Source of the DNA: a virus
Taxonomy: Duplodnaviria > Heunggongvirae > Uroviricota > Caudoviricetes
IMG/VR virus record: IMGVR_UViG_2645727640_000022
Reading direction: 5' to 3' (one strand)
Length of the DNA stretch: 13,817 nt
The notes below the pieces were generated by a model. It was not told where the DNA came from. It saw only the letters and a program-made list of their open reading frames with translations, and made no database searches. Shown here piece after piece: positions 12,504 to 12,867 of the stretch; the first letter of the stretch is position 1, and the number at the start of each line of letters is the position of its first letter. Both the position numbers and the translations under genes were made by a program.

Positions 12504-12524
12504 GCAAAATAATTCATTTTCGTA

Positions 12525-12553
12525 TTGACACAAAATCCCATAACGCATATAAA
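12525..12553 (+). promoter_or_regulatory. Near-consensus sigma-70 promoter (PL-like) reading rightward
   Basis: -35 TTGACA (12525-12530), 17-bp spacer, -10 TATAAA (12548-12553); overlapped or flanked by two copies of the ATA(A/C)CGCATAAT motif (12540-12550, 12557-12568) that also occurs in the cI-cro intergenic region. Confidence 0.5.
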
Positions 12554-12589
12554 TACGATACCGCATAATTAATGCATTTTCTAATACCA

Positions 12590-12601
12590 GCTCTTTAACA
12601 A
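12590..12601 (+). promoter_or_regulatory. boxA antitermination element (GCTCTTTAACAA)
   Basis: 12/12 match to the boxA consensus known from rrn leaders and lambdoid nut sites, ~40 nt downstream of the -10 of the PL-like promoter. Confidence 0.45.
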
Positions 12602-12734
12602 ACAGAACCGCGTGACAGGTAAGCCGCAGTGCTCCTGGCAAAACGAAATAGCACCCGATGGGATCGAGGTAAGCGCCGAGTCCGTATGCGTACGGTAAGC
12701 GTAGAGGACAACACCGCGACGAACTGATAAGTCA

Positions 12735-12764
12735 CGCAAGTTGAAACGCCCCGATGATGGGGCG
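12735..12764 (-). terminator. GC-rich hairpin, candidate terminator for the convergent 181-aa gene (possibly bidirectional)
   Basis: CGCCCC-GATGAT-GGGGCG (12747-12764); on the minus strand it is followed by UUUCAACUU, on the plus strand by CUUAGUUCCUUU. About 100 nt downstream of the stop at 12868. Confidence 0.35.
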
Positions 12765-12867
12765 CTTAGTTCCTTTAACTCTGGGTGACCGGAAGGGTAC
12801 CCATGCTTAAAGAAATTACTGGTTGTAAGGATCGTAATCCGTGATTGCCTTCCCCGGATTTTCATCT

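What the first reader, a model, noticed from the sequence alone, without database searches (positions are those of the whole stretch)
12505..12867. Strong promoter plus perfect boxA feeding ~250 bp of structured sequence with no ORF
Just after the cI terminator there is a near-consensus promoter (TTGACA-17-TATAAA, 12525-12553) followed by a 12/12 boxA (GCTCTTTAACAA, 12590-12601). This is the layout of a lambdoid PL/nutL leader, yet no N-like or other ORF of 60 codons or more follows on the plus strand before the IS2 junction at 13387; hand translation finds only 13 to 18-codon peptides. The intervening sequence carries three GGTAAGC copies (12618, 12668, 12694), a CCGTA-TGCG-TACGG hairpin (12682-12695) and a GC-rich hairpin CGCCCC-GATGAT-GGGGCG (12747-12764). 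The region may be a protein-independent antitermination RNA (HK022 put RNAs are a known precedent), a ~200-nt small RNA ending at the 12747-12764 hairpin, an antisense regulator of the convergent 181-aa gene, or the orphaned leader of an early-left operon lost through rearrangement. No boxA/nut-like site follows cro on the other side, where the replication gene starts 3 nt after the cro stop.
Basis: partly seen in the sequence, partly recalled or inferred. Interest (0 to 1): 0.6.

Follow-up and report, generated by a model that had tools for sequence, protein, structure and literature searches.

The report
N-less nutL-like antitermination leader RNA
Just after the phage repressor gene lies a conserved 175-base non-coding RNA, an rRNA-type boxA plus a folded domain plus a boxB-like hairpin, that most likely lets early-left transcription read through terminators without the usual N protein.

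Summary
The promoter, the 12/12 rrn-type boxA, the three GGTAAGC copies and both hairpins are at the stated coordinates.

The real unit is sharper than described. Window 12590-12764 (175 nt) is a cassette kept at over 95% identity in about 80 distinct prophage contexts, while both flanks differ. It is non-coding. It folds into a conserved multi-helix RNA supported by compensatory changes, although its folding energy is ordinary.

It always sits downstream of a cI-type repressor gene and a sigma-70 promoter, the lambda PL position. In intact relatives no N gene follows. A strong intrinsic terminator sits 19-93 nt before the first early-left gene in 43 of 46 contexts.

The 3' hairpin and some flanks match lambda nutL boxB, boxC and the end of the N leader. 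The cassette therefore looks like a nutL site with a ~130-nt RNA domain inserted between boxA and boxB.

Best reading: a cis-acting, N-independent, Nus-assisted processive antitermination leader. This is inferred from architecture, not demonstrated. In this window a reverse-oriented accessory gene and IS2 cut it off from its operon. It matches no Rfam family, and I found no description of it in the papers searched.

The parts
12471..12495 (+). Intrinsic terminator after the cI-type repressor gene (11766-12440)
   Evidence: 10-bp stem followed by a T-rich tail; inverted repeat I10.
12525..12553 (+). PL-like sigma-70 promoter: TTGACA, 17-nt spacer, TATAAA
   Evidence: Read directly from the sequence; 11/12 to consensus. 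The scan rejects it because -10 position 6 is A. In 60 of 82 distinct upstream flanks of the cassette a match of 9/12 or better lies within 120 nt, with the -10 ending mostly 17-43 nt before boxA, or about 66 nt in the lambdoid subfamily (no shuffle control).
12532..12567 (+). Two tandem 18-nt operator-like repeats overlapping the promoter spacer, the -10 and the start site
   Evidence: Repeat family D1: 12532-12549 and 12550-12567 match 11713-11730 in the cI-cro intergenic region at 89% and 78%. Repressor control is inferred.
12590..12601 (+). boxA, GCUCUUUAACAA, identical over 12 nt to the rrn boxA as I recall it
   Evidence: Only exact match in the window. UUUAACAA is invariant and the two preceding bases nearly so across the 57-60 distinct variants aligned; one metagenome variant has GCUCAUUAACAA. 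Marks the 5' edge of the conserved cassette.
12610..12737 (+). Closed multi-helix RNA domain. P1 12610-16/12731-37; long-range P2 12618-36/12705-25; GC clamp with an A-rich 11-nt loop 12638-52; P3 12653-70; P4 12673-76/12699-702; P5 12682-95
   Evidence: RNAalifold, single-sequence fold and pair counts. On MAFFT alignment A4, 45 pairs are 98.7% paired and 7 carry compensatory changes, against 1-3 in slid controls. On model-fitted alignment A5, which includes subfamily 2, 11 of 33 pairs are compensatory against 0-1 in slid controls, and P3 covaries at 6 of 7 pairs.
12747..12764 (+). P7 hairpin CGCCCC-GAUGAU-GGGGCG: the 3' edge of the cassette and a boxB-like element
   Evidence: Conserved in all variants. 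C:G to U:G changes and one C:G to U:A change fit a plus-strand RNA. Aligns with lambda nutL boxB GCCCUGAAGAAGGGC at 12 of 15 positions. No U-tract follows.
12868..13386 (-). Reverse-oriented accessory gene (172 aa from the ATG at 13386), not part of the element
   Evidence: Matches PHROG 1244, function unknown. Absent from most other contexts of the cassette.
13387..13817 (.). End of an IS3-family element (IS2 by its terminal sequence, recalled from memory) that separates the leader from the early-left operon
   Evidence: Homology to uninterrupted relatives stops at 13386. rve integrase-core domains are encoded on the minus strand.

Best explanation
Window 12590-12764 encodes the cis-acting leader RNA of the phage's early-left (PL) operon. 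It is a derivative of a lambdoid nutL site. It has an rrn-strength boxA, then a ~130-nt folded RNA domain closed by helix P1, then a boxB-like hairpin (P7).

Proposed mechanism:
1. After repressor loss, RNA polymerase starts at the promoter at 12525-12553 and transcribes the cassette.
2. boxA recruits NusB/NusE and the other host Nus factors.
3. The folded domain, in place of an N protein, stabilises a termination-resistant elongation complex.
4. That complex survives hundreds of bases of untranslated RNA, including antisense passage through reverse-oriented accessory genes. It then reads through the strong intrinsic terminator just before the first early-left gene and continues into an operon of at least 10 kb (replication and recombination genes).

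Shown here: the conservation, the RNA structure, the position, the terminator gate and the absence of an N gene. Inferred: transcription from this promoter, Nus recruitment, and antitermination itself.

In this window the leader is orphaned, because an accessory gene and an IS2 copy lie between it and the operon.
For: **A discrete conserved cassette**
- Identity is over 95% inside 12590-12764 and mostly below 50% in both flanks, across 77 distinct loci.
- blastn finds the cassette alone, with different flanks, in other E. coli prophages.

**Non-coding**
- All plus-strand frames carry stops.
- The one open minus-strand frame has variable columns spread 21/20/26 over the three codon positions, and 58 of 67 are non-synonymous.
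- Variants range from 173 to 177 nt, and subfamily 2 has an in-frame stop. No protein family matches it.

**Conserved RNA structure**
- Compensatory changes far exceed the slid controls.
- A second subfamily replaces the sequences of P3-P5: P3 stays fully paired with compensatory changes at 5 of its 7 pairs and P4 keeps its pairing at the pair that changes, while P5 fell into alignment gaps and its pairing there rests on my own reading.
- G:U pairs fit only the plus strand.

**Constant PL position**
- A same-strand cI-type ORF lies upstream in 61 of 64 contexts.
- A promoter-like site lies just upstream in several immunity types.
- Operator repeats are shared with the cI-cro region.

**No N gene**
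- A lambda-N homologue occurs in only 1 of about 77 contexts.
- Small proteins of the window and of phage ON470579 show no N-like family.
- A classical lambdoid prophage with O/P and gam-bet-exo also carries the cassette where N would be.

**Terminator gate**
- 43 of 46 distinct intervals between the cassette and the first early-left ORF (57-873 nt long) carry a GC-rich stem plus U6 terminator 19-93 nt before the ATG. The stem sequences vary but stay paired.
- No promoter is predicted between the cassette and that ORF. In the shortest leaders only 19-22 nt separate terminator and ATG.

**Kinship with lambda nutL**
- P7 resembles boxB.
- CUUUGGGGUGUG (lambda boxC) follows in 8 of 59 flanks.
- CACCNCCAAAGNNAACUGA plus a ribosome-binding site matches the 3' end of the lambda N leader.

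**boxA strength**
- NusB binds rrn boxA at 130 nM against 2200 nM for nutL boxA (PMC2800207).
- boxA alone protects long untranslated CRISPR transcripts from Rho (PMC7665894).
Against: - No transcript, Nus-binding or read-through data exist. Everything functional is inferred from architecture.
- boxA/Nus complexes of the rrn type are known mainly to oppose Rho, not strong intrinsic terminators (my knowledge). The folded domain would have to supply that activity.
- The -10 hexamer in this immunity type lacks the conserved final T.
- Folding energy is no better than that of shuffled sequence.
- The covariation rests on few independent lineages: two or three subfamilies of closely related sequences. 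The best counts come from a model-fitted alignment.
- Natural deletion variants lack P4-P5 (L053, L088) or P2-P3 (L104, L117). Parts of the domain may therefore be dispensable, or those prophages may be defective.
- Intrinsic terminators are absent within 200 nt in the lambdoid subfamily and in this window's own class.
- One context keeps a lambda-type N gene, so dependence on N cannot be excluded for the family.
- The PR side has no second copy, unlike the nut and put systems.
Confidence: 0.55

Rival explanations
1. A conventional nut site that still needs a phage protein. The cassette binds an N-like antiterminator of an unrecognised family encoded elsewhere. One candidate is the 49-aa first early-left product, whose N-terminus is arginine-rich (RLTGRDVLRWRRKQ). 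Another is an N supplied by a co-resident lambdoid prophage. P7 would serve as its boxB.
For: P7 resembles lambda nutL boxB, and its loop keeps a G-A-Y-G-A pattern. One context (L095) has a lambda-N homologue 562 nt downstream and no other boxA or boxB in 6.8 kb. The 49-aa ORF is the first gene after the terminator in 46 distinct contexts and has an arginine-rich stretch.
Against: No N-like family appears among the small proteins of the window or of phage ON470579. The 49-aa product has a C-terminal hydrophobic helix, lies downstream of the terminator it would have to suppress, and is absent from the lambdoid subfamily. The P7 loop varies at five of six positions among variants. By my knowledge this is unlike boxB loops within one N specificity group.
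Confidence: 0.2
2. A stand-alone or processed regulatory RNA. The PL transcript ends at the nearby terminators, or is cleaved, to give a stable RNA of about 200-300 nt. That RNA acts in trans, for example as a base-pairing small RNA or as a decoy that titrates NusB/NusE. The early-left operon would be expressed in some other way.
For: In many contexts an intrinsic terminator follows the cassette, 15 nt after it in one class and 67-69 nt after it in another. Small RNAs derived from the PL operon exist in lambda: PreS (bioRxiv 10.1101/2024.10.31.621285).
Against: P7 has no U-tract, and this window's class has no terminator within 200 nt. In the shortest leaders the terminator abuts the ribosome-binding site of the first operon gene, with no room for another promoter. 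No long single-stranded conserved seed is evident apart from boxA and the A-rich loop.
Confidence: 0.1
3. A leader structure for RNA processing, stability or translational control, like the RNase III-sensitive structure in the lambda N leader. It would have no role in transcription elongation. boxA would be an inherited remnant.
For: The leader is collinear with the lambda N leader. That leader contains a processed structure (Kameyama et al. 1991, listed in PMC11893012; the rest from my knowledge). The long imperfect P1-P2 rod could be a nuclease substrate.
Against: boxA is the most strictly conserved segment and defines the cassette edge. The first downstream gene differs between contexts and lies 57-873 nt away, which does not fit control of one gene's translation. 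The helices are short and interrupted for an RNase III site (my knowledge).
Confidence: 0.1

Closest known systems
Lambda nutL (the N-utilisation site in the PL leader)
   Same: It sits downstream of the repressor gene and a repressor-controlled promoter. It has a boxA, followed by a GC-rich hairpin that matches boxB at 12 of 15 positions. In some contexts the same boxC (CUUUGGGGUGUG) and the same 3' leader end (CACCACCAAAG..AACUGA plus ribosome-binding site) follow.
   Different: About 146 nt, including a ~130-nt folded domain, separate boxA from the hairpin; in lambda the spacer is about 8 nt. boxA is the full rrn form. The hairpin has a variable 6-nt loop. No N gene follows in about 76 of 77 contexts. 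No nutR-type second copy was found.
HK022 put RNAs (putL and putR)
   Same: A cis-acting RNA just downstream of PL in a lambdoid-type phage that lacks N. Its proposed role is protein-independent read-through of terminators (PMC9378689).
   Different: put is about 70 nt with two stems, has no boxA and no Nus requirement, and occurs at both PL and PR. The covariance model of this cassette finds nothing in the HK022 early region. This cassette is 175 nt, carries a boxA and is present once.
rrn leader antiterminator and boxA-only elements (CRISPR arrays, suhB)
   Same: The boxA is identical over 12 nt, as I recall the rrn sequence. It heads a long untranslated transcript that Rho would otherwise be expected to terminate (PMC7665894; PMC2800207).
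   Different: The rrn order is boxB-boxA-boxC, and those elements are known to act against Rho. Here a large phage-specific folded domain follows boxA, and the barrier downstream is a strong intrinsic terminator.

Membership tests
Lambdoid nut site (N-dependent) | boxA element on the early transcript downstream of PL | tested here: met
   GCUCUUUAACAA at 12590-12601, 36 nt after the -10 hexamer. A cI-type gene lies upstream in 61 of 64 contexts.
Lambdoid nut site (N-dependent) | boxB: a 5-bp stem with a GNRA-like pentaloop a few nucleotides after boxA | tested here: not met
   The only boxB-like hairpin (P7) lies 146 nt after boxA and has a 6-bp stem with a variable 6-nt loop. It looks like a boxB relative, not a canonical boxB.
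Lambdoid nut site (N-dependent) | A cognate N-type arginine-rich antiterminator encoded by the phage, normally directly downstream | tested here: not met
   blastp with lambda N and P22 gp24 (both sequences recalled from memory), plus an arginine-rich-motif screen of 673 downstream ORF products, found only L095. PHROGs and Pfam gave no N family for the small proteins. An unrecognised family cannot be excluded.
Lambdoid nut site (N-dependent) | A second site (nutR) on the rightward early transcript | tested here: not met
   Each locus has exactly one match to the cassette model, including the window and the loci whose flanks reach the rightward early genes. No second boxA was found.
HK022 put RNA | Two-stem RNA of about 70 nt similar to putL/putR, present after both PL and PR | tested here: not met
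   The cassette's covariance model found no match in HK022 24000-32000. The cassette differs in size and architecture and is present once.
HK022 put RNA | Acts alone on RNA polymerase (beta' zinc-binding domain), without Nus factors | not testable with these tools
   Needs in vitro transcription and rpoC mutants. The conserved boxA argues for Nus involvement.
rrn-type / boxA-only Nus antitermination | High-affinity boxA matching GCUCUUUAACAA | tested here: met
   12/12 match. UUUAACAA is invariant and the two preceding bases nearly so in the 57-60 aligned variants; one metagenome variant has GCUCAUUAACAA.
rrn-type / boxA-only Nus antitermination | Element order boxB-boxA-boxC, with action against Rho-dependent termination | tested here: inconclusive
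   No conserved hairpin precedes boxA. boxC-like GU-rich motifs occur downstream in some contexts. The downstream plus-strand RNA has more C than G. Action against Rho was not tested.
Any Rfam family | Match to a curated covariance model | tested here: not met
   No hit at gathering thresholds in the whole window. Only one chance-level hit at E up to 10 in 12430-13000.

The most novel reading that the evidence does not exclude
The cassette is a self-sufficient RNA antiterminator of a new kind. It would be a nut site in which an inserted ~130-nt folded RNA domain has taken over the job of the N protein. It would combine Nus-factor recruitment through an rrn-strength boxA with a put-like RNA contact to RNA polymerase, giving processive read-through of both intrinsic and Rho-dependent terminators with host proteins only.
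Probability: 0.4. Interest if true: 0.8.

Novelty: new variant of a known kind. Interest (0 to 1): 0.62.

Why it matters
Few mechanisms of processive antitermination are known: N, Q, put, rrn/Nus, RfaH/LoaP and a few elements on conjugative elements. Each has taught something about how RNA polymerase is reprogrammed.

This cassette appears to be an evolutionary intermediate between two of them. It is a nut site that kept boxA and a boxB-like hairpin, gained a large RNA domain and lost N.

If it works as proposed, it would show how an RNA can replace an intrinsically disordered protein in a Nus-factor complex. It would also explain how a common group of E. coli prophages expresses a replication operon of at least 10 kb past terminators and reverse-oriented accessory genes; about 2% of complete E. 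coli genomes carry the cassette.

It is compact, modular and directly testable with reporter fusions in existing nus and rpoC mutants.

Tried and rejected
- **Rfam.** Searches at gathering and permissive thresholds found nothing.
- **Folding energy.** Not distinguishable from shuffled sequence, so it was dropped in favour of covariation.
- **All-against-all column covariation**. Swamped by shared ancestry and not used.
- **Coding on either strand.** Rejected.
- **P7 as an intrinsic terminator or small-RNA 3' end.** Rejected: no U-tract in any flank class.
- **P7 as the terminator of the reverse-oriented gene.** Rejected: P7 is conserved where that gene is absent.
- **Antisense regulator of that gene.** Rejected for the same reason.
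- **mEp021-type Gp17/nut system** (PMC11893012). A different phage group, and blastn found no similar sequence in the phage collection.
- **Lambda PreS small RNA**. It lies at a different locus, between ea10 and ral.
- **Second, nutR-like copy.** None found.
- **Plasmids.** No match.
- **Wider searches.** The species-representative genome scan and the metagenome scan added only the same subfamilies, so sequence diversity remains limited.
- **Outward extension of P1.** Its register differs between subfamilies, by my own reading of the alignment, so it was not included.

Full report
**1. The observation**

- TTGACA at 12525-12530, a 17-nt spacer, TATAAA at 12548-12553.
- GCTCTTTAACAA at 12590-12601.
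- GGTAAGC at 12618, 12668 and 12694. The rest of the window holds one other copy; 1.1 copies are expected by chance in the whole window.
- The CCGTA-TGCG-TACGG hairpin at 12682-12695.
- The CGCCCC-GATGAT-GGGGCG hairpin at 12747-12764.

The surroundings also check out:
- The cI-type gene (11766-12440; HTH plus Peptidase_S24) ends in a terminator at 12471-12495.
- cro (11424-11624, minus strand) is followed 3 nt later by a 731-aa primase/helicase gene.
- Homology to uninterrupted relatives stops at 13386, and an rve-domain transposase end begins there.
- No other boxA with one mismatch or fewer exists in the window.

Three corrections are needed:
- The consensus promoter scan does not report the promoter, because its -10 hexamer ends in A.
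- Folding energy is unremarkable, with z-scores of +0.5 and -0.3.
- A TTG-initiated 82-codon plus-strand ORF exists at 12985-13233. It lies antisense to a conserved gene and has no N-like character.

**2. What the unit really is**

blastn against 5,426 complete E. coli genomes found the region in 104 of them. Query positions 150-324, which are window 12590-12764, occur on their own with unrelated flanks.

Exact-pattern scans of viral contigs gave about 90 loci. A conservation profile over 77 distinct loci shows identity above 95% from boxA to the end of the GC hairpin. Identity is mostly below 50% on either side.

The functional unit is therefore a 175-nt cassette, not the 363-nt span originally marked.

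Its distribution is narrow:
- Four sequenced phages out of 50,697, the vB_EcoM-...R series.
- No plasmids.
- Three further Enterobacteriaceae species representatives.
- Gut and other metagenome contigs carrying the same subfamilies.

**3. It is non-coding**

All three plus-strand frames carry stops in every variant. One minus-strand frame is open in 54 of 61 variants, but it does not behave like a gene:
- Variable columns fall 21/20/26 over the three codon positions.
- 58 of 67 are non-synonymous.
- Variants of 173-177 nt would shift the frame.
- Subfamily 2 has an in-frame stop.

PHROGs and Pfam find nothing for it. The minus-strand 'hypothetical protein' that GenBank record ON470579 annotates over this promoter and boxA region is probably spurious.

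**4. It is a conserved RNA structure**

RNAalifold on 57 distinct sequences predicts helices P1, P3, P4, P5 and P7. On that MAFFT alignment 99.7% of cells pair. Four pairs carry compensatory changes, against 0-1 when partners are slid by one to three columns.

A single-sequence fold suggested a long-range helix P2 that continues from P1. Counting that refined model on a MAFFT alignment gives 45 pairs, 98.7% paired, with 7 compensatory pairs against 1-3 in slid controls. Two examples are 31:135 (UG, CG, UA) and 41:125 (UA, CG, AU).

A second subfamily (L100, L106, L107, L108) replaces the sequences of P3-P5. P3 stays paired throughout, and P4 keeps its pairing at the pair that changes. In the model-fitted alignment that includes this subfamily, 11 of 33 pairs are compensatory against 0-1 in controls, and P3 covaries at 6 of 7 pairs.

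G:U pairs, and C:G to U:G changes in P7, fit only a plus-strand RNA.

Caveats: the sequences form only two or three closely related lineages, and the best numbers come from an alignment fitted to the model.

The three GGTAAGC copies sit at helix junctions (end of one helix, UAA linker, start of the next). They are also the end-points of natural deletion variants.

**5. Where it sits**

- In 61 of 64 distinct contexts a same-strand LexA/cI-type ORF (GDSM motif, 209-261 aa) ends 128-1803 nt upstream.
- In 60 of 82 distinct upstream flanks a promoter match of 9/12 or better lies within 120 nt, at consistent distances. The hexamers differ between immunity types.
- In this window two 18-nt repeats overlapping the promoter match a third copy in the cI-cro region. 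This is as expected for OL and OR operators.

This is the lambda PL position.

The cassette occurs in two phage types:
- This one, which has a DUF5906 primase, a Q antiterminator, lambda-type lysis genes and an early-left operon with DUF2800, DUF2815 and DNA polymerase.
- Classical lambdoid prophages with O/P replication genes and gam-bet-exo. There the cassette occupies the place where nutL and N would be, and no N gene is annotated.

**6. What follows it**

Downstream flanks fall into several classes. They include accessory genes in either orientation, three-codon mini-ORFs and C-rich tracts.

In the DNA-polymerase phages the first conserved gene is a 49-aa ORF that opens the early-left operon. 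In 43 of 46 distinct intervals, 57-873 nt long, a GC-rich stem plus U6 terminator lies 19-93 nt before its ATG. The stem sequences differ but remain paired.

In the shortest leaders the terminator abuts the ribosome-binding site. No promoter is predicted between the cassette and the operon. The operon must therefore be transcribed through a terminator from the promoter upstream of the cassette, and the cassette is the only conserved element on that path.

The operon is at least 10 kb long and contains reverse-oriented genes.

In this window's relatives the transcript would have to cross about 850 nt of untranslated RNA, including the antisense strand of a 172-aa accessory gene. That stretch has more C than G.

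**7. No N, but nutL ancestry**

I screened 673 distinct ORF products within 3 kb downstream, using lambda N and P22 gp24 (sequences recalled from memory) and an arginine-rich-motif filter. Only one N homologue turned up, in L095: 68% identical to lambda N, 562 nt downstream. That locus has no other boxA or lambda-type boxB.

The small proteins of this phage match no N family. The 76-aa ORF between the primase gene and Q is a cysteine-rich protein.

Aligning the lambda PL leader with the cassette's 3' part shows three correspondences:
- P7 (CGCCCCGAUGAUGGGGCG) matches nutL boxB (GCCCUGAAGAAGGGC) at 12 of 15 positions.
- It is followed in 8 of 59 flanks by CUUUGGGGUGUG, which is lambda boxC.
- Further on comes CACCNCCAAAGNNAACUGA plus a ribosome-binding site, which is the 3' end of the lambda N leader.

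The cassette is therefore best described as a nutL derivative. About 130 nt of folded RNA, closed by P1, has been inserted between boxA and a boxB-like hairpin, in phages that have lost N.

It is not put. The covariance model finds nothing in the HK022 early region and only one copy per locus. put is about 70 nt, lacks boxA and occurs at both PL and PR.

**8. Most likely mechanism (inferred)**

- boxA here is the full rrn form. NusB binds that form about 17-fold more tightly than nutL boxA: 130 against 2200 nM (PMC2800207).
- boxA alone can protect long untranslated RNAs from Rho (PMC7665894).
- I propose that boxA nucleates a Nus-factor complex, and that the folded domain together with P7 substitutes for N in making it processive and resistant to intrinsic terminators.
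- This would be a cis-acting device with no phage-encoded protein. I rate it at 0.55.

Rivals:
- An unrecognised N-like protein is still required (0.2).
- The RNA is a trans-acting or decoy RNA ending at the nearby terminators (0.1).
- It is a processing or stability structure like the one in the lambda N leader (0.1).

**9. This window specifically**

The copy here is 100% identical over the 430 nt compared (window 12441-12870, which contains the cassette) to that of E. coli O55:H7 DEC5E. However, IS2 is inserted immediately upstream of the accessory gene's start codon (13387). Any transcript from this leader now runs into the IS element. The terminator and the early-left operon seen in relatives are not in the window. 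The leader is intact but functionally orphaned here.

**10. Novelty**

There is no Rfam family. The full-text searches I ran on boxA, Nus, put and phage antitermination found no description of it. I class it as a new variant of a known kind, a nut/put-type early antitermination leader. If the RNA proves to work without N, it would be a distinct mechanism.

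Noticed in passing
window 8841-9224: The intergenic region between the primase/helicase gene and the next gene holds about ten direct and inverted copies of GGTGACGG / GGTGACAGGTGACGG. 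This looks like an iteron-type replication origin.
   Followed up: no
window 13384-13400: IS2 is inserted exactly one base upstream of the ATG (13386) of the 172-aa accessory gene. This removes the gene's native upstream region and creates a longer fused ORF (12868-13413) that starts inside the IS end.
   Followed up: partly
L095 (IMGVR_UViG_2924896205_000007), 562-885 nt downstream of the cassette: This is the only context with a lambda-N homologue (107 aa, 68% identity, arginine-rich motif conserved). The 6.8-kb locus has no lambda-type boxB and no second boxA, so this N may act on the cassette itself.
   Followed up: partly
L003 5175-5215; L004 5176-5215; L119 and L120 equivalents: In two flank classes a strong ribosome-binding site and a three-codon mini-ORF (MKN*, MHK*, MKH*) follow the cassette, then a C-rich tract. 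They recall the lambda bar minigenes. Their function is unknown.
   Followed up: no
L053, L088, L104, L117: These are natural deletion variants of the cassette whose end-points lie in the GGTAAGC repeats. They lack P4-P5, or P2-P3, or both. The same 26-nt deletion arose in two different subfamilies.
   Followed up: partly
L001 9170-9319 and 46 other contexts: The first early-left gene encodes a 49-aa protein (PHROG 11981). It has an arginine-rich N-terminus (RLTGRDVLRWRRKQ) followed by a hydrophobic helix, and it sits directly after the gating terminator.
   Followed up: partly
L001 9060-9085 and class-B leaders: A conserved GU-rich motif, UUGCUGUGUGUAGUCUUU (boxC-like), lies immediately before the gating terminator of the early-left operon.
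   Followed up: no
L023, L091, L096: about 580-600 nt upstream of the cassette: A second consensus boxA (GCTCTTTAACAA) lies on the same strand. It is followed directly by a ribosome-binding site and an ORF (MLNTDE...), so two boxA elements sit in tandem on one transcript.
   Followed up: no
ON470579.1 31989-32132 (equivalent to window 12498-12641, minus strand): The GenBank record annotates a 47-aa 'hypothetical protein' across the PL promoter and boxA. It is probably a spurious call.
   Followed up: partly
Yersinia phages YeP4, YeP5 and YeP6 (MK733262-4), near 13.9 kb: They share 79% identity with window 12494-12575, the promoter and operator region only, and lack the cassette. This suggests a related immunity region in Yersinia phages.
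   Followed up: no
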